A stretch of 64,000 bases of DNA, taken from positions 1-64,000 of the IMG/VR virus record IMGVR_UViG_3300021400_000154. One strand, given 5' to 3'. The position numbers were made by a program, and so were the translations under genes. Below the pieces are notes generated by a model. It saw only the letters and a list, made by a program, of their open reading frames with translations. It did not search any database and was not told the origin of the DNA. This document shows, piece after piece, positions 360 through 34,784 of this stretch (position 1 is its first letter; each line of letters begins with the position of its first letter). The stretch comes from a virus. Lineage: Duplodnaviria; Caudoviricetes.

Positions 360-2198
360 CTAGAAAGGCATTTCCTCAGACCCGTCCTGCACAGCGAAGG
401 CAGGAAGATCTGCCGCCCGATCCTCAGGCTCCTGCAGACCGGCGTGATCCCAGCCATAGACTGTGCGATCGCCATAGGAAGTCTGGAAGATCCTGCGGGT
501 GGACGGATCGAAAGAGCAGTGGATGTAGGGCGTGTCACCGAACTCACGGTTCTTGGTCACCCGAACGTTCGGCTTCTCGATGCACATCACGATGTCCGCC
601 AGATTGGTGATCGCGGCAGAGCCCGCCACATCCTCAGAGTTGAACGTCTGGTTTGCGGGTGTCTTTCTCGGATGCGCAACCAGGATCACATGCGCCTTGA
701 ACCGCACGGCGAACTGCTTCAGCGCGGCGGTAATCTTCGCCTGCTGCTTCAGCTCCTCCTCAATGCCACTGGTGAGCATCATCAGGTTATCCACCAGGAA
801 CAGCTTGCAACCATAACGGCGGGCGCACAGGGTGAACCGCTTGATCACGGACTCCACCATGGTTCCCTGGTCCACAAAGGAGTTGTCGAACAGGAAGAAC
901 TTCTCGTCCAGCCAGTCCTTGATGCGCTCCTGAACCTCGTAGGGCACCATCGCATAGTTCTTGCCGTTGCGGATGTCCTGCTTGTAGGTCATGAACTTGC
1001 GCTCACAGGCCTGGGCCATGATCCAGTCGCGGAACTGTATGGCAGAGAGTTCGCCGGAGTAGGCAGCAACCTTGTAGCCCTGCTCCACACCGTTGAGAAG
1101 GAAGGTGCCAGAGATAGTGCTCTTGCCCTCACCGCGCTTGCCGGAGATAACTGTCAGACAGCCTTCGCCGAAACCGCCAATGGCCTGATCCAGCTCAGGA
1201 ATCCGGGTATAAATGCGCGGAATGGAGGACGGATCCACATAGGGAACCGCAGACAGGTTCAGCACACCCTCCACAGGAGCAGGCTCGCAATGGTCAGCCA
1301 CGTCCTTCAGGCCTGCGCGGCCATAGGAGAACAGGATCTCATTGGCATCCTTGCAGATACGGCCCTGTCCCTCATCGTTCATGATGAACTCAGGATACAT
1401 GGGCGCGATCATGCAGCGGTCTTCGCCAAGGCGCTTAACCAGAGTCTGCATCATGACCATGCCGGGCTCATCAGAGTCGCCAAAGAGCACGATCATACGG
1501 AAGTTCTCCAGCCAATCCCAGCAGAGATTGACCCAGTCCAGGTTATTGCAGCCGCAAGGCACAGAGACCACGTTCGTCACGCCAGCCTCATACAGGGACA
1601 TGGCATCGAACTCGCCTTCGGTAATGAACAGGGGCTCGTTGAAGGAGACACCATCCATGTTGAACAGGATGGGCTCCGTATTCTTCTCCTGCCACTCCTT
1701 GGGCATGTCGTCCTCTTTGCGGTTGTAGGCCTTGGGCTTGCGGTACTTCACGTACACCAGCTGGCCGTCTCGGTAGAAAGGAAAGACGATGTTGCCCCAA
1801 CTGTCGGACATGATATGGAAAGCAGCCATGGTCTCCTCGCTGATGCAGCGGGAGGCGAAGTAGGCGCGGATCGCGTCCGTCGTGGGGCGATACTGGGTTT
1901 CATCCGGGCGATCCCAGACTTTGACCTTCTTGTTGCCGAAGATGGTCTTTGCATCCTCGTCAACCTCGTAGAAGTCGTCAAAGTTCTCCATCAGCGCCTT
2001 GAAGGTGCCGGATCTGCTGCAGCTTCCGCGCTTGCAGGACCAGACACCGTTATACAGACTGATGCCGAAGGTGTTCTTGTCGTGGTTTTCACCGCCATGA
2101 CAGAAAGGGCATTCCTTGGCAACGAGTTCTCCGTTGCGAACGGAGTATTCCACAATGTGTTTGTCGGCAAACGCCATCACAGCGTCTTTAACGTTCAT
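360..2198 (-). CDS. bifunctional DNA primase-helicase (T7 gp4/Twinkle-like)
   Basis: Zn finger CPFC...CKRGSC, TOPRIM ITEGEFD and DSDEPG, Walker A GKRGEGKS, DnaB-type LVDNL and LVAHPRK; ends ...EEMPF-TAG. Confidence 0.92.
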   Translation of the reverse strand: MNVKDAVMAFADKHIVEYSVRNGELVAKECPFCHGGENHDKNTFGISLYNGVWSCKRGSCSRSGTFKALMENFDDFYEVDEDAKTIFGNKKVKVWDRPDETQYRPTTDAIRAYFASRCISEETMAAFHIMSDSWGNIVFPFYRDGQLVYVKYRKPKAYNRKEDDMPKEWQEKNTEPILFNMDGVSFNEPLFITEGEFDAMSLYEAGVTNVVSVPCGCNNLDWVNLCWDWLENFRMIVLFGDSDEPGMVMMQTLVKRLGEDRCMIAPMYPEFIMNDEGQGRICKDANEILFSYGRAGLKDVADHCEPAPVEGVLNLSAVPYVDPSSIPRIYTRIPELDQAIGGFGEGCLTVISGKRGEGKSTISGTFLLNGVEQGYKVAAYSGELSAIQFRDWIMAQACERKFMTYKQDIRNGKNYAMVPYEVQERIKDWLDEKFFLFDNSFVDQGTMVESVIKRFTLCARRYGCKLFLVDNLMMLTSGIEEELKQQAKITAALKQFAVRFKAHVILVAHPRKTPANQTFNSEDVAGSAAITNLADIVMCIEKPNVRVTKNREFGDTPYIHCSFDPSTRRIFQTSYGDRTVYGWDHAGLQEPEDRAADLPAFAVQDGSEEMPF

Positions 2199-2243
2199 TT
2201 GGCACTCTTCTTTCTTCTTTTATTGGTGAGGAGCCGGATGGTG

Positions 2244-2624
2244 TTACTCGGTAGGATCGTCAGTCTCGGTCACATCGACAGGCTTGGCATCCGTATCGGT
2301 ACCCTTCTGGCCACGGCGCGGACGGAACTCGGAGACGCGAACCCGCATGTGCGGATGCGAAACACCGTTGGCGTCGGGCCGCTCCACCATCTCCATGCCA
2401 CCACGGATGGTGATCTCGGTACCCTTCTGCAGTTTGGTAAAGGCGAACTCGCCCTCCTTGCCCCAGATAGAGCACTCGTAGAAATTGGTGCGGTACTCGC
2501 CGTTCTCGTCCTTGGAGTTGGTGTTGACGGCAACGTCAAAGTTGCAAACAGTGCTGGTGCCAACGGCGCGCAGCACAGGATCCTTGGTCAGGTTACCCTC
2601 GATGGTGATGAAAGCGTTGTTCAT
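2244..2624 (-). CDS. ssb: single-stranded DNA-binding protein
   Basis: IEGNLTKDP...FDVAVN...FYECSIWG OB-fold pattern, acidic tail. Confidence 0.88.
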   Translation of the reverse strand: MNNAFITIEGNLTKDPVLRAVGTSTVCNFDVAVNTNSKDENGEYRTNFYECSIWGKEGEFAFTKLQKGTEITIRGGMEMVERPDANGVSHPHMRVRVSEFRPRRGQKGTDTDAKPVDVTETDDPTE

Positions 2625-2675
2625 GAGTCATCCCTCTTTCTTTTGTCGTTTAGAAGCTGCCTGGCAACTTCTTTC

Positions 2676-2702
2676 CATTACGTTTGTTTTCGAGGTTGCG
2701 GA
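2676..2702 (-). promoter_or_regulatory. 27-bp repeated motif copy 1 (candidate phage promoter)
   Basis: TCCGCAACCTCGAAAACAAACGTAATG on minus strand, intergenic, upstream of ssb. Confidence 0.7.
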
Positions 2703-2715
2703 AACGAAGGGGCGA

Positions 2716-3351
2716 TCAAGCCGCCCCTTTCGTCTCCTTCAGGAATGCCAGCAGCTCGGAAACGCGGCCGAGATCGGTGCATGCCTTGTAGTTGTAGCTG
2801 CCAATGATGGGCTTGATAGCCTTCTCGGCAAAGGCCTTCTTGGCAGCGGTGTCCATGTCCTTGGTGCGCTCCTTGATCAGATCATCAATTTCCTTGACGA
2901 TCTTGGCGATCACCACCGCCTCTTCAGCCTTGCGCTTCTTGTCCTCCTCAGACTCCTCAGGCAGATCTTCGCCTGCATAAATATACAGTCCCAGACCATG
3001 CCGCGCAGCAGCCTTCGTCAGACTCCGCTGAATCGCCTTGTTCACATCCATACTGGTCACCTGTTCCAGAGGAATGGAACGATTCTTGAAATCCATGACA
3101 GGCAGCATCTCGATGTACTCCAGACCCTGCACCGTAACGCCGGTCTTCACCCAGCAAGTCTTGCCATCGGTGAAGTAGTTGCAGGGACCGTACTCGGTCT
3201 CGCGCTCATAGACAGTGAACGTGGTGCCGGGAAACTGTTCGTTGATCTGATCCCAAGCCCAGGCCCAACTCAGGTAAGTCAAGCCATTCTTCTTTTCGGT
3301 GTGCTCGTTCACGTCGATGGTGCGGAGTTTCCTGAAAGCCGTGTACTCCAT
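2716..3351 (-). CDS. Sak3/DUF1071 (Rad52-like) single-strand annealing protein
   Basis: KKNGLTYLSWAWAW and LPVMDFKN...NKAIQRSLTKAAARHGLGLYIYAGED motifs; next to ssb. Confidence 0.85.
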   Translation of the reverse strand: MEYTAFRKLRTIDVNEHTEKKNGLTYLSWAWAWDQINEQFPGTTFTVYERETEYGPCNYFTDGKTCWVKTGVTVQGLEYIEMLPVMDFKNRSIPLEQVTSMDVNKAIQRSLTKAAARHGLGLYIYAGEDLPEESEEDKKRKAEEAVVIAKIVKEIDDLIKERTKDMDTAAKKAFAEKAIKPIIGSYNYKACTDLGRVSELLAFLKETKGAA

Positions 3352-3354
3352 TTG

Positions 3355-3870
3355 TCACTTCTCCTTTTTCTTGGTCGTGTACTTGTGACAGTCATATCCA
3401 AGAGGAAGTACATCCTCTTTAGACATCAGGTATGGCATGCGCTTCCGTTCCTCATTGGCCTTTTCCAGGCGGTTCTTTCCCTGGTCCTGGTTGGTCCTGA
3501 CCTTGGGATCCGGGAGGCGCTTGATGAAGATGGGAGGCCTGCTCAGGCGGTCCCCGTGAATGTCACATGGGAACCACATGAGCGCTCCCTTTGGGTAGTA
3601 TTTCTTGGTCTCGTCGTGGGAGTATGCCTTGTCGCCATGCATATGATCCCGAGTTCTGTAGCCAGAGAGAAAGTCCACAAGCTCCGGATGGTTCGCAGGA
3701 TCATTCACCAGTACCTTTGGCATGGCTCTGTATGTATCCAGATCCTCTCTGGTTACGCGGTAGCCCGAACGGTTTTCGCTCTCTCCTGCGCTCTTGCGAA
3801 GAATGTAGGACGGGTCGGTACGGCCCTTGGCGAAGTCCTCTTCCGCGACGATCCCGAGGAAGTAGAGCAT
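3355..3870 (-). CDS. hypothetical protein
   Basis: ORF with RBS in operon. Confidence 0.65.
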   Translation of the reverse strand: MLYFLGIVAEEDFAKGRTDPSYILRKSAGESENRSGYRVTREDLDTYRAMPKVLVNDPANHPELVDFLSGYRTRDHMHGDKAYSHDETKKYYPKGALMWFPCDIHGDRLSRPPIFIKRLPDPKVRTNQDQGKNRLEKANEERKRMPYLMSKEDVLPLGYDCHKYTTKKKEK

Positions 3871-3874
3871 CGCA

Positions 3875-4231
3875 TCACTCCTCGTGAATGTTGAGATGCA
3901 GCATCTGATACTGCATCTCTCCGGCGAGCTTGCCGAGATCCTGATAGGCTTCCTTGGAAGTCTGCAACGTCTTCACGACGCCAACGCAAGATCTTGTGGT
4001 CTCGTCGAAGCCACAACGATACATGTAGACTTCGATGTACGCACCTTCACAAACTCCGGGAGATACGACAACCTCGAACCAGTCGTCCAGCTGCACCGGA
4101 TCCTCGAAGCCGCTTCCGACAAGACGGAAGTTGGCATATTCCAGCGCGGTATTGCCATAGGAACAGAAGTAGGAATTCTTGACGGTCTCACAGCGGGAGA
4201 AAGCTTTCTCCAGGAAAGTTCCAAGCGTCAT
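3875..4231 (-). CDS. hypothetical protein
   Basis: ATGA overlap with upstream gene, GGAGG RBS. Confidence 0.7.
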   Translation of the reverse strand: MTLGTFLEKAFSRCETVKNSYFCSYGNTALEYANFRLVGSGFEDPVQLDDWFEVVVSPGVCEGAYIEVYMYRCGFDETTRSCVGVVKTLQTSKEAYQDLGKLAGEMQYQMLHLNIHEE

Positions 4232-4755
4232 TTCACATCCTCCTCACTCCACTTGAGTCCACGGGCCTTGTACAGCGGCACCCAATGCGCTTCGTAGAAG
4301 TCGTATCCGGCACCGTCGATACCAAAGATGTAGCCGTAGTCCTCCTGCTCGTAAATGCGGAAGCCGCAGTCAGCCATCTCATGCATGTGATTGCCGAGAT
4401 AACCGTCCAGCCACTCCACATCCGTGGGATCGGAGAAGGCCCACATGGTGCCCCACATGGGCAGCAGATCGTTCCGATCCAAGCAGAACTCGTCCCAGGC
4501 CAGTTCCACCTTGTCGCCATTGTCCAGGCGAACCGTATACATCCTGTCGTGACCATCGCTTCGATGGGACAGAATCTCACCATATTTGCCATTGGTATCG
4601 AACACGTACACCGTGTCTCCAATGGCAGGAGGCGTGACTTCGCGGATCTCATCCGCGTCCGCCCGCACAAGCTTCTCCACCACACCCAGAGGAATGGCGT
4701 TGAACTCGCGGACCCAGGCATGAGTTGCTTCCAGTGTCGTCTTGTACTGTTTCAT
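4228..4755 (-). CDS. hypothetical phage protein
   Basis: AAAGGAG RBS; FGIDGAGYDFYEAHWVPLY C-terminal motif. Confidence 0.75.
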   Translation of the reverse strand: MKQYKTTLEATHAWVREFNAIPLGVVEKLVRADADEIREVTPPAIGDTVYVFDTNGKYGEILSHRSDGHDRMYTVRLDNGDKVELAWDEFCLDRNDLLPMWGTMWAFSDPTDVEWLDGYLGNHMHEMADCGFRIYEQEDYGYIFGIDGAGYDFYEAHWVPLYKARGLKWSEEDVK

Positions 4756-4789
4756 CTGAAATCTCCTTTCGTTCTACGCCGCGCCGCTG

Positions 4790-7627
4790 TTACTCGGCGC
4801 GACGTTTCAGTAACTTGTTTGCTTGTGTGATTTCCCGGCGCTTCTGGTTGTAGGCCTCGAAGTACTCCTTGTTGCGCTGCTCCGCGCACTCCTGACACCT
4901 GACCTGGCGCGAGTTGGTCCTCGGCGCCAGCTTGCCACAGTCCATGCAGCGGATGAAGCCGCGAGGAAGGCCTGTGCAGTCATGAGGCGAGGACCAGAGC
5001 GGAATGGACATGCCACACTCAGGACAGATCCTGCAGGCCACCAGGTTCTCCTCCAGCGTCTTGATGGCGATGTCGCCGAAGACGCGCCAGAACATCTGCT
5101 TATGGCTGGACTTGGCCACATTGCGCTCGGAGAACAGGGCATAGACCACCGCCGGGTAAACCTTCTCCAGGCTCCCATACTTCCCGATCAGGGTGCGCTT
5201 GATCTGGTCTGCGACAAAGTCGTAGCCAGCTCCGGCAACACGAACCGCAGAGTCGGACTGCTCGGACGTGTCGATAATGTTCGAGAAGTTGGTGTTGTCC
5301 ATGTCGAAGAACAGCTTGACCGCGTCCTCCATCTTGTCCTCCACCTCACCGGAGAGCATCATGCGGTAGTTAAACGGGGCCACACCAGCATAGTTCATGT
5401 TGATGTTCCCGATCCCGCTGAAGTAGTTGGCGAGGCGGTTCATGATGGAGTCATTGGGCTTCTTGCAGCGACGTTTCTTCTTGTTCTTCGTGTCCTGGTT
5501 GTGGCGACCGTTCCTGCTGTACTGGAAGAAGTACGGCATACGCCCGTTCTTTCCACCCACAGCGGCATTGATGCGCTTTGCTACCTCCGGGTACTTGTCG
5601 TACCCGTTGATGACAGGTAGCTTGGCTCCATCGATCACCTGATTGTTGTAGTAGCACAGCAGCTTGCCGGAATGGTAGTCAGGCTCGTCGGAGTTCCACA
5701 GCTTGCACAGGTTGTTGGACACCTGGCCGATGCCGGAAGAGTCGTGCGCACGAACCAGTCCGATGAAGATGTTCTCGCGGCTGATCGTCTCAGGCGGAAC
5801 CTCGTTCGCGTCATAGAACAGCGGCACGATGTCGTGCTCCCGGACATTGCGTTCTGCGACCGCTACAAAGACAGCGTTCACCACCACATTCAGCTGATCG
5901 CCGTCGCAGTCGAACTGCAAGATCCGACTGATCAGGTCATGAATGCTGGTATAGATACCGTTGGTGATAAACCAGCTGTAGACCTCGGAGGAGTGGCTGA
6001 TGTTGCGGACGGCATGCTCCATGAACAGGTGCGGAGAGCGAAGGCAATCGCACTTGTCATAGTTGCGGTAGACCTTGCAGGCAACCCAGCCATTCTCGAG
6101 CAGGCCTTTCGGATTCTTCTCGCCCAGAAACAGGTACTCGCAGAAGGCGTACAGGTCAGGAATTACGAAGAGCCGCTTGTTCTCGCAGATCAGGCGACCG
6201 GACTGTGCATCCTGGGTCCAGCGGCGCTTGATGGCCTTTAAGGTATCCTTGGAGAAGCCATCCCGCAGCAGCGGATCGTAGAGACACAGCGCCCGCTTGT
6301 AGGGCTGGTCCGAGAACTCGTCTGCCCGGAGCGTCCGAAGCATGGACGCCTTGTCGGTGGCGATGTTCTTGATCTTGTCCCAGGTGCGCTGGGCGAACTG
6401 CGCCATCTCTTCGTTGGTAAAGTCGGTCAGGGACTCAATGAACTGGTAGTTGACCGTTGTGTCCGGGACGAAGGCCTCCTCATAGTTGGTAAAAGAGATG
6501 CCCCAGCCGCACATCTTGGCGATGGTCTTGTACTCCTCCCAGGAAGCGTAGAACTTCCAGAGCTTGAACTGGGAAGCAGTCAGGATCATGGTGATATGCT
6601 CCTTAACCAGGTCATGCTTCTGACCCCAAGCATCCACCACCTCAGGCTTCACACCGTGAACCCTGCAGAACCGAAGGAAATCAAACGGGGACACGAGCCC
6701 CTTGATCCAGGCAGACCGGATCATCCGGTTGTCCTTGAACTCGGAAGGCAGGACCATGCCACAGCCGTCCGTGTGCTTGATCTCCACGGTCGCAACCTTG
6801 CGCTCCACCGTGTAGTCAGGGTTGATGTAGTCCAGCAGGTCGGTCACCAGCCCGGAGAAGTCCTTGACGACAACGATCTTGTCGAAAGAGAAGTCGGAAG
6901 GATCAGTAGCGCTGAAGTCCAGGGCGGTATAGGCCAGGTACTTGGACACGTTCAGTCCGCCCTTGGCGTTGATGGTGTCCCAGTCCAGTCCGCACTGGAT
7001 GTGTACGCGTAGCTGCTCCCATGCCGCATCCGAGAAGCAGCAGACCTTGTCGGTCCGAAGCTGGCCTGCGGATGCGGTTACCATGTCGTAGTGCCGCAGA
7101 TCAATGCTCCCGTCCTCCAGTTCAATGGGGATGTAGAATCCGTCCAGGACCACCTGATGGAGGACCTCCACGGACTTCCACTTCAGGATGACCTTGTCCA
7201 GGAACACCTGATCTTTCTGGATCCCCAGGAATCTGGATGCGTCAGAGCAGAACTCTGCAATCTTTCTGGATGCGCGAAGAGTGTTCCACGTGATACCAAG
7301 CTGCTGGATCGGCTCGCCGTTACAATCCTTCGGCAGCAGTCTGCTGTCTGTCACTCCGGCGACACGTACTGTCCTCGGCACTCCACGATGCTTCAGGATC
7401 AGTTCATCCAGCTGCACCTGAACGGATTTCTTCTCAGCCAGCAGTTCCGCTTTCCGTTCGGTGTTCTTCTTGGTGTTGTTCTTCTTCGCTTCGCTGTCCA
7501 ACCTGTCCATCTCAGCAATATACGCCATGATCTTCTCGTAGAGCGCATATTCATCGTCTGTGAACAGGTCGGTGGTTGTCAGCGTGATGAGCCGGTACTG
7601 CTGGCTCAAATAGCTCTTTTTAGACAT
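4790..7627 (-). CDS. single-subunit two-barrel RNA polymerase, YonO-like (RNAP-1)
   Basis: HTDGCG, IRSAWIKG, LRSPH, catalytic QFDCDGD (5897-5911), IDGAK; C-terminal CxxC Zn ribbons. Confidence 0.88.
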   Translation of the reverse strand: MSKKSYLSQQYRLITLTTTDLFTDDEYALYEKIMAYIAEMDRLDSEAKKNNTKKNTERKAELLAEKKSVQVQLDELILKHRGVPRTVRVAGVTDSRLLPKDCNGEPIQQLGITWNTLRASRKIAEFCSDASRFLGIQKDQVFLDKVILKWKSVEVLHQVVLDGFYIPIELEDGSIDLRHYDMVTASAGQLRTDKVCCFSDAAWEQLRVHIQCGLDWDTINAKGGLNVSKYLAYTALDFSATDPSDFSFDKIVVVKDFSGLVTDLLDYINPDYTVERKVATVEIKHTDGCGMVLPSEFKDNRMIRSAWIKGLVSPFDFLRFCRVHGVKPEVVDAWGQKHDLVKEHITMILTASQFKLWKFYASWEEYKTIAKMCGWGISFTNYEEAFVPDTTVNYQFIESLTDFTNEEMAQFAQRTWDKIKNIATDKASMLRTLRADEFSDQPYKRALCLYDPLLRDGFSKDTLKAIKRRWTQDAQSGRLICENKRLFVIPDLYAFCEYLFLGEKNPKGLLENGWVACKVYRNYDKCDCLRSPHLFMEHAVRNISHSSEVYSWFITNGIYTSIHDLISRILQFDCDGDQLNVVVNAVFVAVAERNVREHDIVPLFYDANEVPPETISRENIFIGLVRAHDSSGIGQVSNNLCKLWNSDEPDYHSGKLLCYYNNQVIDGAKLPVINGYDKYPEVAKRINAAVGGKNGRMPYFFQYSRNGRHNQDTKNKKKRRCKKPNDSIMNRLANYFSGIGNINMNYAGVAPFNYRMMLSGEVEDKMEDAVKLFFDMDNTNFSNIIDTSEQSDSAVRVAGAGYDFVADQIKRTLIGKYGSLEKVYPAVVYALFSERNVAKSSHKQMFWRVFGDIAIKTLEENLVACRICPECGMSIPLWSSPHDCTGLPRGFIRCMDCGKLAPRTNSRQVRCQECAEQRNKEYFEAYNQKRREITQANKLLKRRAE

Positions 7628-7811
7628 TTGCTTCTCTCCTTTTCTTCTCGGTAGCCGACGTGGTTCAGTTACCGGGAGGTCCGCGTAACAGGTTTTTCAC
7701 TCAATCTCCTCCTTTAGCGAACACTTGTTCGTGTTGCAGCTGAAACATACAGCATGTGTCTACCCTTTGACAAGGAAATTTTTCGCAACTTTCGCAATGA
7801 GTTTTTCTTCT

Positions 7812-7838
7812 CATTACGTTCATTTTCGAGGTTGCGGA
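7812..7838 (-). promoter_or_regulatory. 27-bp repeated motif copy 2 (candidate phage promoter)
   Basis: TCCGCAACCTCGAAAATGAACGTAATG upstream of RNAP-1. Confidence 0.7.
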
Positions 7839-7841
7839 TTT

Positions 7842-8045
7842 TCACTTGATCCGGACAAGGTAGTTCTCGCCGCAGTCGTAGACTGTTCGTTCAAGCTCCT
7901 GCGCGTCGGAGAGAAACACGAAGAGCGAACTGTTTTCCTCAGCTGCCTCAAAGATCAGGAGATCGATGGTGAAGAACCGCATCAGGAACTTCAATCGTTC
8001 CTGGTGCTTTACGTTGTCGTCCAGGTCGCCGAAGTACTCGCTCAA
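7842..8045 (-). CDS. hypothetical protein
   Basis: TTG start after GGAGGTGG. Confidence 0.55.
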   Translation of the reverse strand: MSEYFGDLDDNVKHQERLKFLMRFFTIDLLIFEAAEENSSLFVFLSDAQELERTVYDCGENYLVRIK

Positions 8046-8099
8046 TGAACCACCTCCGAAAAAATAAGGGGCTGCTGCACAAGGCAACAACCCCTAAGA

Positions 8100-8384
8100 T
8101 TACGATGCTTCACCGGTGGCTTCGTCCGGATCAGTGAGCCGGGCATCCAGCTCGTGCATGTCCAGCGGCCAGTTGTCACCCGTGTCGTAGGCATGCATGC
8201 TCAGCACAGGCCGGATGAGGTTTGTCGCCTTGATCAGGTCGATCTTGTGCTGAATGAAGGCCTCTCCTTCCGGCGTATGCATGTACTTAGCGAAGAACTG
8301 CACCGCCTGGTCGCCATTGTCGGCAAGGACGTAGACAGAGGGGCGGCCCTCAAGCCGCAGATCGATGGAGTAAACCTTAGCCAT
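8100..8384 (-). CDS. hypothetical protein (MAKVYSIDL...)
   Basis: AAGGAGG RBS; overlaps upstream stop. Confidence 0.65.
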   Translation of the reverse strand: MAKVYSIDLRLEGRPSVYVLADNGDQAVQFFAKYMHTPEGEAFIQHKIDLIKATNLIRPVLSMHAYDTGDNWPLDMHELDARLTDPDEATGEAS

Positions 8385-23637: not shown

Positions 23638-23639
23638 TT

Positions 23640-26223: not shown

Positions 26224-26239
26224 GGAGAGGGGTGATACG

Positions 26240-26440: not shown

Positions 26441-26460
26441 CCCCAGAAGAGAGAGGCTGC

Positions 26461-29400
26461 TTACTCAGCAGCCTCTTCTTCTTTCTCGAAACGCATCGCG
26501 GCCTTTTCTGCCAAGCCGCCGAAGATCATCCAGTAAGCTCTCCAGAGCTGATCACGCAGGAACTGGACTTTGGGATCGGCGTATTCGATATCGCACTTCG
26601 TGAACATGTAACATGTAATCACGTCATACGCATTGATCAGCGTCAGCCCAAACGATTCTGCGAACTCACTGATCTCGGACAGTGCCGCGACTCTCCAGTC
26701 GTCTTCAAAGGATGTGTCTTCCTGGTCCTTCCGGGTCTCATCTCTGGTCCAAAGCTGGCGATCCGTTTCGATCCTGCGGGCCAGGGCATTGAACAAACCT
26801 TCATCCGGACGGCACCAGGCACCATCAAGCATGATGGGGTTATTGCCCTTTCTGATCAGTCCCCACATACCACGCCGTCCCTCTTCGGGGTCGAACATCA
26901 GCATGTGGTAATCAAACTTACCCTCAGGCAGGTCGTAAATCTCGGTGGATCTGTCCAGCTTGTCGCTGTACAGCATGAACAACCGGTTAAGAGTAGACAC
27001 CATCAAGGTGCGATCTACTCCGTCCATGGAAGCGAGCTTTTCCAGCTCGTTTCTGGTCGCATGGCGAGCAACCGCATCTTTGTACAGTTTCGCCAAAGGC
27101 TGCACCATATTAGTAGCAGCTTGGCTTTCCCGAGGCTCGTTGAAGTCGGCTCCACCATGTTTGCTGGCATCCACCAGCACATTCGCGGCAAATACCTTGA
27201 AGTTGACGCCGCGCTCGCTGATTTCAACCAGTTCATAGTGGTATTCTCCAGTAACAGGGTCTTTAACTCTGTTGACCCTGTTCAGAAGGCCGTTCTCGTT
27301 GAACACGGTCAGTCCGAGCTGGTTCTTATGGGTCAGACCTCCAGCATAGACGAGCTCGTCTTCGCGGGAAACGATCTGTTTGTCAGTCTCTGGCGCTTCC
27401 CAAATGATGAGCCTGTTCCACCTGGCCAGCGTCTCTTTCGTCGCCTGGATCATACCTTTCTCGAAGGAGAACTTGACACCATCGCCGTCGAAATCCATGG
27501 CAAAGGCGCGGGAGGTGTCATCGTAGCAGTTGAAGTAGACGCAGTACGCCTGCGTCTTGAAGTATTTCTTGAACGCCGCTTTCGGAGCGACGTTCCGGAG
27601 GACCCTGTCGCTGTTGGGATGCACAACAGGGGACCTGGAGCAGGCGAATTCGCCGTACTGGAATCCAGGGATCCATGCTTCGCCGACTTCCAGACTGCCG
27701 GTCCGCTCCAGGCCGAACCATGCCTGGAAGACGTATACCGGATCGGGGAGCGCCTTCGCGTAGTAAGAGTTACGAAGAATCTTACCAGAGAAGGCGAGGT
27801 CGATGTCTTTCGTGAGTGATGTCACGAATCGTTCATTGATGGCCCGGACATTGAGGAACGTCGGAAGAATGCGGGCAATATGCCCGAGCTCACGCCCGAG
27901 CATTTTGCTGGCACCATCAACGGTGTGGGCACCGTTGATTCGCTTGATGGTCGGTTCAGCCATCAGCGCCAAAGACTCGTCTGATGCTTCCGTGAGTGTC
28001 TGGACAACCTGGTAAGAGGTGTCCTTCTTTTCCGGGGCATGGGCGCGTACGCATACACCAAGGTCGAACTCAGAGCGAACTGCGTCGCACCAAGCCTCAA
28101 ACGTGGTATACGCTCTGGTTGCGTTGCCGATGTTCGTCTTCAGGACGGTCTCGTCCATAAAGACGGAAATCTGGTCGATGGGACGACCATCGGGCATCGT
28201 ATGGATACCGTTTTCGTGAAGGAACCGATGAGCGGCGAAGTTCCGGTCGCAGCAGCTCTTAATCGCTGCGCCATTAGCCCGAATTGTGACCACCGAGTGA
28301 TCGGCCATAAAGGCTTCGATTCTTTCGGCCGCTTCTTCGGGATCAACGCCCTGCTGAATCAGCCGGTTCACGAACACAGGAACCATTTGTTCCGGAATTT
28401 CGATGCAGGAGTATCCGTCAGAGCGGATCTCGCTCTCTCGGTTGTTGTCCATCTGCTCCTCATGCCCGTCGAGGAACTCCTTCGTATGGTTGCCGACGAT
28501 CTCGGACCACACGGAAGGCATGATTGCACAATCCTCCGGAATGAAGGGGATCCCAAAGGACTTCCTGGGAACGGCCTGAAGGCCAACAAGGTAAGCAACT
28601 TTCTTCGCGACGGTCGTCAGCCATCCAGTGTTTGTATCTTTCAGAATCCATGTCCGCATTTCTGCGTAAATGGACTCTTTGACCCAGAGAGTTTTGCATT
28701 CCTTGGCGTTGTTGGTGCCATGGCCAAGGAACACGTACTTTGTTCCATTGATAACAAGACCGTTCATAACGGTCTGGCGCCACAGGTGTGCGGCGTCTTC
28801 CGCCATCTCCAGGCTCTCTATGTCTGTGGCTTTGGCATCCGGAATGATTGATGTGACGTGAACGATGGCGTTGTCCCCGCCGATGGCGATGGCTTTTGCC
28901 TCAACTGGAGACACGCCCTTGTTGATGCTATCAAAGTCGAACCCGTTTTTCTTCGGGTTCAAGGTCGCACGAATGAACGTGCGTGTACCATAAGCCCGAA
29001 TAGTGGGTTCAGCCTTGCAGATCGGCTCCAAGGCGTCGAGGATTTTGTAAGCTGTCTTTTCGCCAATACCCGGGATTTCCATCAAACGTTCAGTGTTCCG
29101 GCCAACAATGACCTTCTTCAGGTCGCTGACTCGGATCGCCAGAACGGCGGCGATCACAGCTTTCTTGAGGCCCTTGCAAGCCTCGAGCCTCGTCCTGGCA
29201 TTGTCTTTCCATTGCTCGGCGTTTTCGCGACGAACAAGGGTGTTCGTCCAGCCATGGTTCGCCAAGACGATACTTGGCGTACCTGCCGTTTTGATTTGTC
29301 TCGGCAGGTTGGGCTGCTTAGTGGCAATCTGCCGATAGGCCGAAAATCCTTCTTCAGCAGACTGGAAGACTTTGGATTTAATGGCCCCGTTCAGCTCATA

Positions 29401-29685
29401 CTGAACCATAACCGGAGTCTTTCTTGTGGCACTGCCACCGCTACCAATAGCGAGCAACATCGGGAGTGCCAGGATCCGCCCGGCACGGCGGGCCAGCATC
29501 CTGACCCTGTTGGTCTTGTTGATCTTCTTGACAGTGGGCTTGCCATAATAGGCATTGGCCCACTCGGCGATCTTGGTCTCGGTGGTCTGGGTGGCCACCT
29601 CGGTGGTGACGGTGGTGGTGTCCTTGGTCCAGCCAGCGCAGAACGCCAGCACAAGGGCCAGGATCAGGGCAAACAGCTTCTTCAT
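26461..29685 (-). CDS. second two-barrel RNA polymerase-like protein (RNAP-2) with hydrophobic N-terminus and HhH motif
   Basis: RSDGYS, IRANGAAIKS, SRSPVVHP, AMDFDGD (27481-27495), VDASKHG; HhH LMEIPGIGEKTA. Confidence 0.78.
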   Translation of the reverse strand: MKKLFALILALVLAFCAGWTKDTTTVTTEVATQTTETKIAEWANAYYGKPTVKKINKTNRVRMLARRAGRILALPMLLAIGSGGSATRKTPVMVQYELNGAIKSKVFQSAEEGFSAYRQIATKQPNLPRQIKTAGTPSIVLANHGWTNTLVRRENAEQWKDNARTRLEACKGLKKAVIAAVLAIRVSDLKKVIVGRNTERLMEIPGIGEKTAYKILDALEPICKAEPTIRAYGTRTFIRATLNPKKNGFDFDSINKGVSPVEAKAIAIGGDNAIVHVTSIIPDAKATDIESLEMAEDAAHLWRQTVMNGLVINGTKYVFLGHGTNNAKECKTLWVKESIYAEMRTWILKDTNTGWLTTVAKKVAYLVGLQAVPRKSFGIPFIPEDCAIMPSVWSEIVGNHTKEFLDGHEEQMDNNRESEIRSDGYSCIEIPEQMVPVFVNRLIQQGVDPEEAAERIEAFMADHSVVTIRANGAAIKSCCDRNFAAHRFLHENGIHTMPDGRPIDQISVFMDETVLKTNIGNATRAYTTFEAWCDAVRSEFDLGVCVRAHAPEKKDTSYQVVQTLTEASDESLALMAEPTIKRINGAHTVDGASKMLGRELGHIARILPTFLNVRAINERFVTSLTKDIDLAFSGKILRNSYYAKALPDPVYVFQAWFGLERTGSLEVGEAWIPGFQYGEFACSRSPVVHPNSDRVLRNVAPKAAFKKYFKTQAYCVYFNCYDDTSRAFAMDFDGDGVKFSFEKGMIQATKETLARWNRLIIWEAPETDKQIVSREDELVYAGGLTHKNQLGLTVFNENGLLNRVNRVKDPVTGEYHYELVEISERGVNFKVFAANVLVDASKHGGADFNEPRESQAATNMVQPLAKLYKDAVARHATRNELEKLASMDGVDRTLMVSTLNRLFMLYSDKLDRSTEIYDLPEGKFDYHMLMFDPEEGRRGMWGLIRKGNNPIMLDGAWCRPDEGLFNALARRIETDRQLWTRDETRKDQEDTSFEDDWRVAALSEISEFAESFGLTLINAYDVITCYMFTKCDIEYADPKVQFLRDQLWRAYWMIFGGLAEKAAMRFEKEEEAAE

Positions 29686-29817
29686 GGGGATTCCTCCTTT
29701 TTTGTCGCTTTGGTCAACAAAATGCCGCTTGCCACGGCGAGGCCCATGCTTGAGCGCTGCATGGTGGCGCTTGCATTCCGTCAGCGTCTATGATAGAATG
29801 CACTTGAGGATTTGGGG

Positions 29818-29961
29818 CTATTCGCCCTCAGGCTCCTCGTCGGCGGCTTCTTCAGCCTCCCTAACGGCCTCAAGCGCTTCCGCGTCAGAAGCGTACTCGC
29901 GCATGGTGCCGTCAGGCAGCTTCATCAGCCAACCGTAGCCGGTGAGAGTGGGGTTTGCCAT
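29818..29961 (-). CDS. small acidic protein
   Basis: AAAGGAGG RBS; ends in TAG. Confidence 0.6.
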   Translation of the reverse strand: MANPTLTGYGWLMKLPDGTMREYASDAEALEAVREAEEAADEEPEGE

Positions 29962-30132
29962 GGGTGATTCCTCCTTTCCTCTTGGCCTCTGCTGCAACAG
30001 AGGCCTTTTGATCGGCAAGACGCATGCCGGGATTGCTTTGCCTGGGCTACCAACCAGTCCACGTCTCACGACGTTGAGCGCATTTCACCAGACAGCATGT
30101 CTCACGACGTTCTGCCTGGTGTGGCCTGCAGA

Positions 30133-30483
30133 TTAGAAACGGATCTTGTCCGCTTCTTTCCAATCTACGGCTGCCAAACCGCAGATCGACATACAGCAGA
30201 GATCTGCCTTGGCAACGGTATATGCTCTGCGAATGTCTTTGTATCGGGCATAAGCCGATACAAAGATATCAAAATCATTCCAGCCATTCAGCGGCATGTT
30301 GAGCTGCCGCATGAGATCAAACACCAAACTCTGCGCCCAGCGCATGGTCTGGTCCGCCTTCTCCGGGTCCCAGATCCCTCCGATCCAGCAGGGGCCATAG
30401 GACTCCTGCTCGGGGTTATAGTCGAACCCATTGATGAGGGTCAGGATGGCGTTGATGGCGGCGATGATAATTTTTTCGATCAT
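30133..30483 (-). CDS. hypothetical protein
   Basis: AAGGAGG RBS. Confidence 0.65.
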   Translation of the reverse strand: MIEKIIIAAINAILTLINGFDYNPEQESYGPCWIGGIWDPEKADQTMRWAQSLVFDLMRQLNMPLNGWNDFDIFVSAYARYKDIRRAYTVAKADLCCMSICGLAAVDWKEADKIRF

Positions 30484-30651
30484 GGTTATCCTCCTTCTCC
30501 AGCCCTTCGGCTAGAATCGAACATTTCTGGGTTGGGCTTTTAACCCTTATCCACACTGGCTTGGTCCCCAGCAGACCTTCCACATCCTTTACAGCGATGC
30601 AGCTTCTGGCTGTGTTTATTTAATAGTCCTACACAGCTCTGGACCACTTCA

Positions 30652-30747
30652 TCAGCCGATGATCTCGTTGCTCAGCGCAACGAAATCGATGTTGGCATTT
30701 CTGAATGCTTTCTGCAAAGCCTTCAGAAAAGCAATGAGCTTCTTCAT
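30652..30747 (-). CDS. small protein (31 aa, MKKLIAFLKALQKAF...)
   Basis: AAAGGAG RBS; amphipathic helix pattern. Confidence 0.5.
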   Translation of the reverse strand: MKKLIAFLKALQKAFRNANIDFVALSNEIIG

Positions 30748-30781
30748 CGAGATTTCTCCTTTCTTTTCTTTTTTGTGGCTT

Positions 30782-30845
30782 CCCACGACGTCTGTCTCAC
30801 GACAGTCGTTTCGGCCATGCGCCATCTGGCCCTCATCAGGTGGGG
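30782..30845 (-). ncRNA. hammerhead ribozyme, type I
   Basis: CCCAC-CUGAUGA-G GGCCA...UGGCC-GAAA-CGACUGUC GUGA GACAGACG-UC-GUGGG; predicted cut between 30787 and 30786. Confidence 0.85.
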
Positions 30846-31141
30846 TTGATCAGAGCATTGAACGCCCTGAGCGCAACGACGGTGTCACGATCCAGGGCGC
30901 AGGAGCGGGTGGCGCAGATGCCATCATATGGGCACCCATCACAACCAGTGTTCTCGACGCACTGCTTGTGCGCCTTGATGATCGAGACAATATCGGGGAT
31001 CACCTCATAAGAGAAGTTGGCATTGTACTTATTGGAATAATCCAACTCGTCCGCCTTCTCCCAGGCGGCCTCCTCGGTGGCGAAGCCGGGGATGACCTCG
31101 ACTTCGTCGATGGGGTTAGTGACAATCAGGATGTACTTCAT
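30836..31141 (-). CDS. hypothetical Cys-rich protein
   Basis: AAGGAGG RBS; CDGCPY; its TGA stop lies inside the hammerhead core. Confidence 0.7.
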   Translation of the reverse strand: MKYILIVTNPIDEVEVIPGFATEEAAWEKADELDYSNKYNANFSYEVIPDIVSIIKAHKQCVENTGCDGCPYDGICATRSCALDRDTVVALRAFNALINPT

Positions 31142-31201
31142 TGTTTGTTCCTCCTTCTCTTTGTGTTGACAACGCTCCGTGAAGCGTGTACAATAACGAT
31201 A

Positions 31202-31434
31202 CCCGGCAGAGCCCCTTTCGGGGCCTGGACGACTCAGTCGCCTGTTTCGTAGTCACTGGCATGTGCTACGTATACAGTCTCTTCTGCTTCGTCGGTGACG
31301 TATATGTCGCAGCTCAGATCTTTGGCAAAAAGATCCGCATTGACAACCGCGTCATCCTTCTCATCGCAGGAGAACAAGACTGAACCGCCAGAAGTGGATA
31401 CCTTGTACACGGCAAGGCCCTCCTTTCTGCCGGG
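31202..31434 (-). ncRNA. candidate multibranch structured RNA
   Basis: closing stem CCCGGCAGA/TCTGCCGGG encloses several hairpins (GCCCC-GAAA-GGGGC, GATCTTT/AAAGATC, CCTTG/CAAGG). Confidence 0.5.
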
Positions 31435-32993: not shown

Positions 32994-33042
32994 GATCTTT
33001 TCTATGAACAAAATCGCGCTGCGATAACAAGCAGCGCTTTGA

Positions 33043-33113
33043 CGCGCTGTGGTGCAAAGGCAGCATGTTAGGGTCATAACCTAGAGCTTCGGGTTCGAGT
33101 CCCGACGGCGCAA
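33043..33113 (+). tRNA. tRNA-Met (CAT), initiator-like, CCA not encoded
   Basis: acceptor CGCGCTG/CGGCGCA with C1:A72 mismatch, anticodon arm TTAGG-GTCATAA-CCTAG, T arm TCGGG-TTCGAGT-CCCGA. Confidence 0.85.
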
Positions 33114-33137
33114 CTTCTTATTTAGCGAGGTGTTATC

Positions 33138-34784
33138 ATGTAGAAAGCAAAGCTTGGTGTAATCACAAACTGGGATGTAATGGAAGAGCAAATCATTTTC
33201 TACAGGACGCACCTTGATGTCTTCATTGAAGATGCTTTTCCACCGATTAAACTCAGCAGGGACCAGCATGTGATCGCAAGACAGATTGGCAACTGCAGAG
33301 ACTCAGATGTTGTACAGAACCGTGGTGCTGGTAAGACATGGCTGATCGCACTCTGCTGCCATGCATTGTGTGTCCTGTACCCGCAGACATTTGTCGCGGT
33401 GTGTTCCAAGACAGCGAAACAGGCGAAGCTGGTTCTGGAAAAGCTGAAGTTCCTTGCTGAGCGCAACCCGAACATCGCGAACGAGCTCACGTCGAACAAC
33501 GCCAGGAGTCTTGTGCAGATCTCGACAGACAAGGGCAGAGCCGTATACAAGAACGGATCCAAGTTTGAATCCTTTGCGATGGAGAGTGCCCGTGGCCAGC
33601 GCGCAAAGATTATTGTGGTTGACGAGGCGCGGGACGTGGACCCTGAGATTGTGGATGCCGTTGTTTCTCCTTTAAAGAACTACCGTCGGGAGATCTCGTT
33701 CGAGAACAAGTTCCCGGATTTTGCTTCAAAGACGATTCGCATCACATCCGCATGCGAGAAAGCCCTCCCATATTATCAGGAGTTTGTGAAGACCCTGAAG
33801 AACATGGCCGCAGGGGATCAGCAGAGCTTTGCTTGCGCCTTGGATTGGAGGGCTGCTGTGGAGAACGGTGTCAACCAGGAGGAGTACTTCATCCACGAGC
33901 GCGAGAACAAACCCGATGTTGTCTTCGCCATGGAGTACGAGTCAAAGTTCGTAGGCTCCACCAATAACTCAGCCTTCCCGTATGATCTGACGCAGAAATG
34001 CCGGACGCTTCAGAAGGTTGAGCTGGAACAGCCGAAGAACTCCAAAAGCCGATATGTGATATCCCTGGACATCGCGACCAGCGATGCGGACACGGCTGAC
34101 AACTCCATTCTGAGTGTATTGAAGTTCATGGAGAAGTCAGACGGCACGTTCAACAGAAAGCTGGTCTACATGCGATCCTTCCATGGAGAATCGCTGGACG
34201 TGCTGGCAGAGGAAGTTCGTAAGCTGTATCACCTGCACTTCCCGAACGCGGAAAAGATCATATACGACGCCAGAGGTCTGGGTGACAGCCTGGACAGGTT
34301 CTTCGACAAGGAATGGGTGGACTATGCCAGCGAGAAGGAATACCCACCGCTGGTGGTTGATGACGAGCCGAACATGAATGCGGCTGCTCAGCCGATGCTG
34401 CATCCATTCCGGGCGATCCAGGCGCTGAACCAGCGGTTATACACAAACATGCGTGTGGCGCTGGAGAAACAAAGGATTGAACTTCCGATCCCCAGCAGGC
34501 TGCTTCAGTCGAAGGAGCTTGAGCGGGACGAGAAGCAAAAGATGTCCATGTATGAAAAGGCCATATATGCAGAGGCTGACGCCCTGCAGTTTGAGATGGG
34601 CAACATTGTCGCAAAGGTGTCTGCCAGCGGCAATGTATTGTACGATACTACAAACATTCGCCTGCACAAGGACCGGTACTCATCCCTGGCGATGGCGAAT
34701 GACTACATCAGCGAACTGGAGAAGGTCAACATCAAGCGTTTCAATCGTGGTGCGCAGTGTGTAGGCCTTGCCAGTGCGTTTTAA
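33138..34784 (+). CDS. terL: terminase large subunit (TAG at codon 2 if the RBS-led ATG is used)
   Basis: RGAGKT Walker A, IVVDE Walker B, SLDIA, YDARG, HKDRYSS nuclease motifs; GAGGTG RBS before ATG-TAG-AAA at 33138. Confidence 0.9.

What the first reader, a model, noticed from the sequence alone, without database searches (positions are those of the whole stretch)
360..33143. Two genetic codes split by strand and gene class: TAG as a timing switch
Seen: I found no in-frame TAG inside minus-strand genes, and three end in TAG (primase-helicase ...EEMPF at 360-362, 16138, 29818). Plus-strand virion genes contain TAG, often near the start (terminase codon 2, capsid codons 27/41/54, head closure codon 22). 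Established: recoded phages concentrate reassigned stops in late genes. Inference: virion proteins cannot be made until a suppressor tRNA or RF1 inhibition is switched on. No such tRNA is visible in this window.
Basis: partly seen in the sequence, partly recalled or inferred. Interest (0 to 1): 0.72.

Follow-up and report, generated by a model that had tools for sequence, protein, structure and literature searches.

The report
Phage late genes locked by TAG
A complete 110-kb gut/rumen phage writes its early genes in the normal genetic code but puts the stop codon TAG inside its virion and lysis genes. These genes can only be finished once the phage's own serine tRNA that reads TAG is present; this layout is already described for other phages.

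Summary
In the window, 42 leftward genes (8,561 codons) have no in-frame TAG and three end in TAG.

The missing suppressor exists outside the window, at genome 91,018-91,102 on the minus strand. It is a tRNA(CUA) with a serine-type body beside tRNA-Ser(UGA). Alignments with relatives support TAG = Ser, not Gln. The genome has no release-factor or class-II aaRS gene.

The split follows gene modules, not strands. Three leftward genes just upstream of the tRNA array (RuvC, PhoH, a PLD-like gene) also contain TAG.

Relatives add variety:
- Several use the standard code.
- One lineage reads TAG as Leu, through a tRNA-Leu(CUA), and has recoded its replication genes too; its suppressor lies upstream of them.
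- One Ser-type relative carries the suppressor inside the virion operon.

TAGs sit toward gene starts in all three recoded lineages.

The timing-switch idea is plausible but is already published (Borges et al.; Yutin et al.) and was not tested here. TAG and TCG interchange at about the synonymous rate, so the pattern could be a by-product rather than a device. Earlier reports of this scan on this genome had already found TAG = Ser and the Leu sister.

The parts
91..31410 (-). Leftward early/replication block written in the standard code: 42 called genes, 8,561 codons, no in-frame TAG, 3 TAG stops
   Evidence: Gene calls and counts. Coding density and score are the same or better under code 11 than with TAG as sense.
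360..2198 (-). Primase-helicase (Toprim + DnaB_C) ending in a genuine TAG stop at 360-362. Readthrough would add 5 residues after the conserved C-terminal ...PF.
   Evidence: Pfam. The C-terminus aligns with more than 20 homologues that end at ...PF followed by TAA or TGA. The next stop is 5 codons downstream.
16138..16593 (-). 151-aa ORFan ending in TAG at 16138-16140. Readthrough would add 50 codons that overlap the next gene.
   Evidence: No family hit. Only one 32%-identical relative, of similar length.
29818..30069 (-). Small acidic ORF (SD-led ATG at 29961 gives 47 aa) ending in TAG at 29818-29820. The frame stays open through a second TAG into the 1,074-aa gene downstream.
   Evidence: No homologue in relatives.
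4790..7627 (-). YonO/RdRP-like single-chain RNA polymerase with no TAG. A candidate transcriber of later genes.
   Evidence: Pfam PF05183, E = 2e-5. 48 relatives. Its G003 orthologue carries 6 TAG.
26461..29685 (-). Second, divergent RNA-polymerase-like protein (1,074 aa) with no TAG
   Evidence: BLASTP against 4790-7627 gives E = 5e-7 across the DxDGD motif.
33043..33114 (+). tRNA-Met(CAU) with a C1-A72 mismatch (initiator-like), 23 nt upstream of the TerL start
   Evidence: ARAGORN. Its 3' half is also present upstream of TerL in L005 and L018.
33138..34784 (+). Large terminase, with TAG as codon 2 (33141-33143)
   Evidence: PHROG phrog_2. Start established by the SD and a conserved N-terminus.
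38599..40266 (+). Portal protein, TAG at codon 83
   Evidence: phrog_2739. The site aligns to Ala/Ser/Val in relatives.
42312..43325 (+). Major capsid protein, TAG at codons 27, 41 and 54
   Evidence: phrog_4088 / phrog_2522. The sites align to Ser, Ala/Val/Thr, and an invariant Gln.
44706..45440 (+). Head/neck-region gene of unassigned family, TAG at codon 22
   Evidence: The site aligns to Ser/Ala.
46229..47992 (+). Two paralogous virion structural (tail tube-like) genes, 46229-47143 (TAG at 86 and 209) and 47216-47992 (TAG at 56)
   Evidence: phrog_2729. Site 56 aligns to Ser in all relatives.
50530..64000 (+). Giant tape measure gene. It runs on to genome 66,969 and encodes 5,479 aa with 57 in-frame TAG, 52 of them in the window, and no TAA or TGA.
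   Evidence: PhageMin_Tail domain. Standard-code relatives have uninterrupted ORFs of 5,460-6,372 aa.

Best explanation
The window is 58% of a complete, circular, 110.5-kb temperate siphophage (it has an integrase) of gut or rumen Clostridia. The phage uses two coding regimes.

Standard code: the immediate-early, transcription, replication and lysogeny genes.

TAG read as an amino acid: 15 of the 33 rightward virion and lysis genes, plus three leftward genes next to the tRNA array (RuvC, PhoH, a PLD-like gene).

The decoder is the phage's own tRNA(CUA) at genome 91,018-91,102, minus strand, outside the window. It has a serine-tRNA body: long variable arm, G73 discriminator, and 76% identity to the adjacent tRNA-Ser(UGA). 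Host SerRS ignores the anticodon, so it should charge this tRNA with serine.

In a cell without this tRNA, host RF1 stops the ribosome at TerL codon 2, at capsid codon 27, at tape-measure codon 22, and so on. Virion assembly and holin production therefore depend on the phage tRNA array being expressed. That dependence imposes an early-then-late order and keeps lytic genes untranslatable in a lysogen.

Shown here: the codon distribution, the tRNA and its serine identity, the true TAG stop of the primase-helicase, and the lack of phage release-factor or aaRS genes.

Inferred: that the tRNA is expressed after the early genes, that suppression is efficient, and that selection favours the arrangement as a switch rather than merely tolerating it.

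The confidence given is for the dependence on the phage's own tRNA-Ser(CUA). For the narrower claim that the arrangement is a selected timing switch, I would give about 0.4.
For: - Codon distribution and its statistics.
- The suppressor: ARAGORN and Rfam tRNA hits, with alignment to Ser and Leu tRNAs.
- TAG = Ser: 8 of 15 TAG sites in the Ser clade fall on Ser-majority columns (p = 4e-7). All four TAG/sense differences between this phage and its close relative L005 are TAG/TCG. Ser is the commonest partner at tape-measure sites (9 of 56, p = 0.013).
- The host-type code applies to early genes: the primase-helicase TAG stop sits exactly where more than 20 homologues stop with TAA or TGA.
- The meaning of TAG is set by the phage: relatives use the standard code, Ser or Leu, each matching the tRNA(CUA) they carry or lack.
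- An independent replicate: the Leu-type relative G003 has a TAG-free early block (39 genes, 2 doubtful TAG) upstream of and around its suppressor. Downstream lie its TAG-bearing replication block (39 TAG) and late block (40 TAG).
- TAGs are skewed toward gene starts in three lineages.
- The integrase is TAG-free.
- No RF-1/RF-2 or class-II aaRS domain in the genome.
Against: - No expression data. The sigma-70 promoter scan around the tRNA array found fewer sites than shuffles.
- 18 of the 33 rightward genes, including the endolysin, have no TAG.
- TAG and TCG interchange at roughly the synonymous rate between this phage and L005: 5 TAG kept and 4 swapped, against 11 TCG kept of 18. Individual TAGs therefore look no more constrained than ordinary codons.
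- In relative G002 the suppressor sits inside the virion operon. In G003 the replication genes are recoded. A late-only lock is therefore not a fixed feature of the family.
- One capsid TAG (codon 54) aligns to an invariant Gln, and 3 of 15 sites are Gln-majority (p = 0.01).
- The base after TAG shows no bias that would favour suppression.
- TAG stops are rare across the whole family, 2-7%, so the three TAG-ended early genes carry no special signal.
Confidence: 0.7

Rival explanations
1. By-product, not a device. Once a suppressor arose by mutation of a spare Ser (or Leu) tRNA, TAG became a near-synonymous codon. It then drifted into any gene translated while the tRNA is present. Genes translated before that, or in lysogens, are simply purged of TAG. 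On this reading the early/late split records when the tRNA is expressed and regulates nothing.
For: - TAG/TCG turnover runs at about the synonymous rate.
- More than half of the late genes have no TAG.
- TAG stops were already rare in standard-code relatives, which makes capture cheap.
- The recoded set differs between lineages and follows the position of the suppressor gene.
- Standard-code relatives with the same gene order do well without recoding.
Against: - The N-terminal skew of TAG in three lineages suggests selection on where TAGs sit. Selection to reduce the cost of failed suppression would give the same skew, though.
- Two independent captures occurred within one family.
Confidence: 0.35
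2. Lysogeny safety lock. The main benefit falls in the prophage state. Stray transcripts of terminase, holin and tail genes cannot be translated by the standard-code host, while the integrase and maintenance genes can be.
For: - A tyrosine integrase at genome 82,522-83,547 and the small leftward genes beside it are TAG-free.
- The holin carries a TAG.
- The same proposal was made for the Garnet and Topaz prophages (Borges et al.).
Against: - No integrated copy or attachment site was examined.
- The endolysin has no TAG.
- This reading is not exclusive of the timing reading.
Confidence: 0.3
3. Weapon against the host or rival phages. The suppressor makes host ribosomes read through host TAG stops, or those of a competing phage, and damages their proteins. 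The phage's own late genes are adapted to it (idea from Yutin et al. 2021).
For: - The phage ends none of its 33 rightward genes in TAG, and only 4 of its 84 leftward genes.
- The anticodon loop is CUCUAAA, which from my own knowledge is the loop typical of efficient amber suppressors.
Against: - TAG stops are equally rare in standard-code relatives.
- The idea does not explain why TAG is placed inside the phage's own essential genes.
- Nothing here tests damage to the host.
Confidence: 0.1
4. The host itself reads TAG as sense, or TAG means Gln (code 15) as in crAss-like and Lak phages.
For: Capsid codon 54 aligns to an invariant Gln, and 3 of 15 sites are Gln-majority.
Against: - The conserved C-terminus of the primase-helicase ends at TAG.
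- The phage carries its own suppressor, with a Ser-type body and a G73 discriminator.
- Ser enrichment is far stronger than Gln enrichment, and the swaps with L005 are only to TCG.
- A sister lineage reads the same codon as Leu.
- The closest genome-database relatives are Clostridia MAGs.
Confidence: 0.04

Closest known systems
[quoted passage not shown] 2021, PMC7886860)
   Same: - In-frame stop codons are concentrated in structural and lysis genes.
- Early and integrase genes use the standard code.
- The phage encodes its own suppressor tRNA.
- Standard-code relatives are close by.
- Those authors propose the same timing / lysogeny-switch idea.
   Different: - Those phages are reported as TAG = Gln or TGA = Trp; here TAG = Ser, and a sister lineage uses TAG = Leu.
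- This phage belongs to a different group: distant TerL similarity to Clostridium phage c-st and other large Firmicutes phages, YonO-like RNA polymerases, and a YomG-like tail domain.
- It has no RF2 or aaRS 'code-change module'.
- The N-terminal skew of recoded codons is not mentioned in that preprint.
Amber-to-Ser phages of Ivanova et al. 2014 (Science 344:909), known to me only through the review PMC4695839
   Same: UAG reassigned to Ser through a phage Ser-tRNA(CUA).
   Different: - The review says those phages also encode RF2; this genome has no RF domain.
- I could not read the original paper, so relatedness is unknown.
Phassvirus phAss-1 group (Babkin et al. 2023, PMC10607447)
   Same: - A large siphophage of gut Clostridia.
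- TAG in TerL, portal and a very long tape measure.
- tRNA(CUA) genes, and no dedicated aaRS.
   Different: - phAss-1 is reported as TAG = Gln, with three suppressor genes and a 3,149-aa tape measure.
- No close similarity turned up in the phage-record search with TerL: every hit was under 60% identity and none of the 15 rows listed was phAss-1.
Laboratory serine- and leucine-inserting amber suppressors (E. coli supD and supP, T4 psu1+); from my own knowledge, not checked in papers here
   Same: A Ser or Leu tRNA body with the anticodon changed to CUA. This works because SerRS and LeuRS do not read the anticodon.
   Different: Those are mutants selected in the laboratory. Here the suppressor is a fixed natural gene, and about 84 sense positions depend on it.

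Membership tests
Late-gene-biased stop-codon-recoded phages (Borges 2021/2022; Yutin 2021) | In-frame stop codons in conserved hallmark genes; reading them through restores full-length proteins | tested here: met
   TerL, portal, capsid and the tape measure are restored under TAG-sense. The TAG sites lie inside alignments with relatives. Standard-code relatives have uninterrupted tape-measure ORFs of 5,460-6,372 aa.
Late-gene-biased stop-codon-recoded phages (Borges 2021/2022; Yutin 2021) | Recoded codons enriched in structural/lysis genes relative to early/replication genes | tested here: met
   80 TAG in 15,987 late codons against 0 in 8,561 early codons in the window, p = 2e-15. The coding-density comparison agrees. 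Three exceptions lie beside the tRNA array.
Late-gene-biased stop-codon-recoded phages (Borges 2021/2022; Yutin 2021) | Phage-encoded suppressor tRNA matching the recoded stop | tested here: met
   A single tRNA(CUA) at genome 91,018-91,102, Rfam tRNA score 58.4 bits.
Late-gene-biased stop-codon-recoded phages (Borges 2021/2022; Yutin 2021) | The host uses the standard code | tested here: inconclusive
   The host is not identified. Indirect support only: a true TAG stop in the primase-helicase; relatives that use the standard code or TAG = Leu; and nearest genome hits in Clostridia MAGs.
Late-gene-biased stop-codon-recoded phages (Borges 2021/2022; Yutin 2021) | The suppressor becomes active after the early genes and before the late genes | not testable with these tools
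   Only positional hints are available. The tRNA array lies at the far end of the leftward arm, and TAG-bearing leftward genes cluster within 9.6 kb of it. The promoter scan was uninformative.
Genetic code 15 (TAG = Gln) | TAG positions align with Gln, and the suppressor has a tRNA-Gln body | tested here: not met
   The suppressor is type II, with a long variable arm and G73. Ser-majority columns at 8 of 15 sites against Gln-majority at 3 of 15. The swaps with L005 are only to TCG.
Amber-to-Ser phages (Ivanova 2014, via PMC4695839) | Ser-tRNA(CUA) encoded by the phage | tested here: met
Amber-to-Ser phages (Ivanova 2014, via PMC4695839) | Phage-encoded RF2, as stated in the review | tested here: not met
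   No PF00472 match in the complete genome at E <= 0.1.
Serine amber-suppressor tRNA (supD-like) | Charged with serine by SerRS | not testable with these tools
   Only sequence features match: G73, the long variable arm, and a C11-G24 pair. Charging needs biochemistry or proteomics.

The most novel reading that the evidence does not exclude
Within one phage family the same stop codon was captured at least twice, once by a Ser tRNA and once by a Leu tRNA. The synthetases for both ignore the anticodon. Each time, the set of TAG-bearing genes follows the place of the suppressor gene along the early transcription arm:
- This phage: suppressor at the far end of the arm, replication genes TAG-free.
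- G003: suppressor upstream, replication genes recoded.
- G002: suppressor inside the virion operon.

In all three lineages TAGs sit preferentially near gene starts.

If these regularities hold across the family, the recoding is a movable, selected translational gate whose timing is set by where the tRNA gene sits. The family would then be a natural experiment for testing why phages recode at all.

A further, more speculative corollary: the switch also extends TAG-terminated early proteins. An example is the primase-helicase, whose conserved C-terminal Phe would be buried, which could help shut replication down late in infection.
Probability: 0.25. Interest if true: 0.8.

Novelty: new variant of a known kind. 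Interest (0 to 1): 0.55.

Why it matters
Annotation: pipelines that know only code 11, 15 or 4 will either shatter this phage's virion genes or translate about 84 positions as Gln instead of Ser. For the sister lineage the correct residue would be Leu.

Biology: the family offers standard-code, TAG = Ser and TAG = Leu members with the same gene order. That is an unusually clean setting for asking whether phage recoding is a regulatory device or a tolerated drift. The location of the suppressor gene gives a concrete, testable predictor of which genes may be recoded.

Tried and rejected
- Sigma-70 promoter and terminator scan around the tRNA array and the TAG-bearing leftward genes: fewer promoter-like sites than in shuffles, so uninformative. 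The phage has its own RNA polymerases.
- Base after TAG: A 27, G 27, C 17, T 13, no different from the first-base usage of codons (p = 0.81). No sign of contexts tuned for suppression.
- Depletion of TAG stops in early genes: 3 of 42 is within the family baseline of 2-7% seen in standard-code relatives. No signal.
- Homologues for the two other TAG-ended early genes: none usable.
- Relatives of the 1,802-aa tail protein in the viral collection: none found.
- Public runs: only the probable source sample holds the stretch in full. The contigs laid from four other runs show 90-99% relatives in animal-gut samples. One bovine metatranscriptome run has contigs on late genes 40449-43194. The variant table did not list the TAG sites, and contigs cannot show expression or timing.
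- In-frame readthrough from the small ORF at 29818 into the 1,074-aa gene: the open frame is expected by chance at roughly 8% (my estimate), so it is not treated as a finding.
- Pseudogenisation as the cause of the TAGs: rejected, because a 16.4-kb frame has no TAA or TGA and TAG sites are shared with L005.
- Literature: four full-text searches found no paper reporting TAG = Leu in a phage. Absence from this library is not proof.

Full report
WHAT THE SEQUENCE IS

The window is the first 64 kb of a single 110,614-bp contig with a 107-bp terminal overlap, so the genome is complete and circular.

A codon-usage gene caller that allowed both codes gave 117 genes in two arms.
- The leftward arm runs from about 31.4 kb down through position 1 and on from 110.6 kb to 82.5 kb.
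- The rightward arm runs from 31.6 kb to 82.2 kb.

The leftward arm encodes:
- two YonO/RdRP-like RNA polymerases (4790-7627 and 26461-29685);
- a Sak annealing protein and a primase-helicase;
- outside the window, DNA polymerase III alpha, anaerobic ribonucleotide reductase, PhoH, a RuvC-type resolvase, a tRNA array with a ROOL RNA, and a tyrosine integrase.

The rightward arm encodes an HNH protein, terminase, portal, capsid, tail tube-like proteins, a 5,479-aa tape measure, Dit, Tal, a baseplate protein, an NlpC/P60 endolysin and a holin.

TerL is only 25-31% identical to that of Clostridium phage c-st and other large Firmicutes phages. The nearest hits in bacterial genome collections are Clostridia MAGs from ruminant and other animal guts.

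CHECK OF THE OBSERVATION

- The primase-helicase ends ...EEMPF-TAG at 360-362.
- The genes ending at 16138 and 29818 also stop at TAG.
- TerL begins at ATG 33138, behind GAGG, with TAG as codon 2. Relatives conserve the following residues (...GVITNWD...), and most have Ala where this phage has its next ATG. The upstream start is therefore the real one.
- Capsid TAGs are at codons 27, 41 and 54. Gene 44706-45440 has TAG at codon 22.

Counts:
- Leftward genes in the window: 42 genes, 8,561 codons, 0 in-frame TAG, 3 TAG stops.
- Rightward genes: 33 genes, 15 with TAG, 80 TAG in 15,987 codons, 0 TAG stops.
- Fisher p = 2e-15, or 1e-6 without the tape measure.

An ORF called under code 11 cannot contain TAG by definition.
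- With TAG as sense, the leftward block does not improve: coding density 0.82 under code 11 against 0.81, with a lower score.
- The rightward block in the window rises from 0.70 to 0.94, and 40 ORFs merge into 23.

The positional claim holds moderately.
- 11 of 23 TAGs outside the tape measure lie in the first quarter of their gene (p = 0.015).
- A permutation among Ser+TAG positions gives p = 0.014-0.05.
- TAGs in the tape measure are spread evenly.

THE MISSING SUPPRESSOR

ARAGORN and Rfam find seven tRNAs at 91-94 kb on the minus strand. The last is a tRNA(CUA) at 91,018-91,102.
- It sits 2-3 nt from a tRNA-Ser(UGA) and is 76% identical to it.
- It has a long variable arm, a G73 discriminator and a CUCUAAA anticodon loop.

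The genome has no release-factor domain and no class-II aaRS domain.

WHICH AMINO ACID

I collected 16 relatives around TerL (59-97% identity) and 48 around the RNA polymerase.

The Ser clade comprises this phage, L005/L018 and L006/L020. It is monophyletic on a quick TerL tree, with SH-aLRT support of 99.
- 8 of its 15 TAG sites fall on columns where relatives mostly have Ser (p = 4e-7).
- Between this phage and L005 (26% divergence at four-fold sites), all four TAG/sense differences are TAG/TCG.
- In the tape measure, Ser is the commonest partner (9 of 56, p = 0.013).
- A minority signal for Gln remains: capsid codon 54 aligns to an invariant Gln. I cannot explain it.

Lineage L007/L008 (record G003) differs.
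- 12 of its 17 TAG sites fall on conserved Leu (p = 5e-11).
- Its tRNA(CUA) has a tRNA-Leu body with an A73 discriminator.

Relatives L009-L015 have no TAG in this region. The complete genomes G004 and G005 have no tRNA(CUA).

The meaning of TAG is therefore set by the phage, and TAG was captured at least twice in this family.

A review attributes UAG-to-Ser phages with a Ser-tRNA(CUA) to Ivanova et al. 2014 (PMC4695839). I found no paper reporting TAG = Leu in a phage.

First test: do homologues extend past the TAG?
- For the primase-helicase they do not. More than 20 homologues end at the same ...PF, followed directly by TAA or TGA.
- The other two TAG-ended genes are ORFans, so the test cannot be applied.

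Second test: does the host read TAG as sense? The evidence against it is indirect:
- the true TAG stop in the primase-helicase;
- the phage's own suppressor;
- the three code states among close relatives.

STRAND OR MODULE?

Outside the window, three leftward genes carry in-frame TAG.
- RuvC (94260-94787): TAG at codon 23, inside the phrog_1770 match.
- PhoH (98489-99343): TAG at codons 7 and 66, in an N-terminal region conserved in relatives.
- A PLD-like gene (100222-100662): TAG at codon 16. This one is not verified by homologues.

All three lie within 9.6 kb upstream of the tRNA array. That is 3 of 12 genes there against 0 of the 72 other leftward genes, about p = 0.002 by my hand calculation.

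G003, the TAG = Leu relative, shows the same thing more clearly.
- Its early block (34.7-65.5 kb) has 39 genes and 2 doubtful TAG. It contains the suppressor, at 49.2 kb.
- Downstream on the same strand, the replication block has 39 TAG in 22 genes. These genes are the orthologues of this phage's TAG-free YonO-like polymerase, primase-helicase and Pol III alpha, plus a ribonucleotide-reductase-like gene only weakly similar to this phage's NrdD.
- Its late block has 40 TAG.

In G002 (Ser clade) the suppressor lies between the portal gene and the next head gene, inside the virion operon.

The code boundary therefore follows temporal modules and the position of the suppressor gene, not the strand.

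HOW IT MOST LIKELY WORKS

Early genes are translated under the host's standard code. TAG-bearing genes can be completed only when the phage tRNA-Ser(CUA) competes successfully with RF1. This makes production of terminase, portal, capsid, tail and holin depend on expression of the tRNA array. It should also keep those genes silent in a lysogen.

That dependence follows directly from the sequence. The order of expression, the efficiency of suppression, and whether the arrangement is selected as a switch are all inference.

Evidence against a purpose-built switch:
- TAG/TCG turnover runs at about the synonymous rate.
- 18 late genes have no TAG.
- The recoded set varies across lineages.
- TAG stops are rare in the whole family, 2-7%, which makes codon capture cheap.

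Evidence for selection:
- The N-terminal skew recurs in L005, L006 and the independent Leu lineage L008: 9 of 17 TAGs in the first quarter, p = 0.012.
- Two separate captures each left an immediate-early block TAG-free.

COMPARISON WITH WHAT IS KNOWN

The architecture and the timing / lysogeny-lock hypothesis are those of Borges et al. and Yutin et al.. Yutin et al. also propose an anti-host reading.

This case differs in five ways:
- the amino acid (Ser, with a Leu sister);
- the phage group;
- the lack of an RF or aaRS module;
- the module-level boundary tied to the suppressor's position;
- the N-terminal skew, which that preprint does not mention.

Earlier reports of this scan on the same genome had already reached TAG = Ser and the Leu sister. 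I re-derived both independently.

VERDICT

The added value is the located suppressor, the Ser/Leu/standard-code family, and the link between suppressor position and the recoded modules.

Noticed in passing
L003:10103-10668 (genome 92,103-92,668, minus strand; outside the window): A full-length ROOL RNA (Rfam RF03087, 277.9 bits, E = 1e-63) sits in the middle of the phage tRNA array, between tRNA-Gly and tRNA-Thr and about 1 kb upstream of the suppressor tRNA.
   Followed up: no
window 33043-33114 (+): A tRNA-Met(CAU) with a C1-A72 mismatch, the mark of bacterial initiator tRNAs, lies 23 nt upstream of the TerL start, whose first two codons are ATG-TAG. The same arrangement appears in the close relatives L005 and L018 but not in more distant relatives.
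   Followed up: partly
window 50530-64000 and on to genome 66,969 (+): The tape measure gene encodes 5,479 aa and has much lower GC (40-46%) than the rest of the genome (about 54%). It holds 57 of the 84 in-frame TAGs, at five times the density of the other late genes. Standard-code relatives have uninterrupted ORFs of 5,460-6,372 aa. Earlier scan notes say an RNA polymerase is fused into it; I did not test that.
   Followed up: partly
window 360-2198 (-): The primase-helicase family ends in an acidic tail with a conserved C-terminal Pro-Phe. From my own knowledge this recalls the C-terminal Phe of T7 gp4 that contacts the DNA polymerase. In several relatives (L052, L053, L059, L070, L087, L093) the gene is split into two ORFs about 2 kb apart, which suggests an inserted element.
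   Followed up: no
window 42471-42473 (capsid codon 54): This TAG, shared with L005, aligns to Gln (CAG) in all ten other relatives, unlike most TAG sites, which align to Ser or Ala. Either a conserved Gln was replaced by Ser, or some TAGs are read differently.
   Followed up: partly
window 29686-29817 (-): The spacer between the TAG-ended small ORF and the 1,074-aa polymerase-like gene contains a 77-nt stretch that is 77% identical to a non-coding stretch in the distant relative L012. It may be a conserved regulatory element.
   Followed up: no
window 9372-12814 (-): Two adjacent paralogous genes of 529 and 598 aa each carry an Amidoligase_2 domain in their C-terminal half. The function of this pair in a phage early block is unclear.
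   Followed up: no
window 40449-43194 (+): Contigs of a bovine gut metatranscriptome run (X20) match the scaffold/capsid region at about 97-99% identity. Contigs cannot prove transcription, and DNA carry-over is possible.
   Followed up: no
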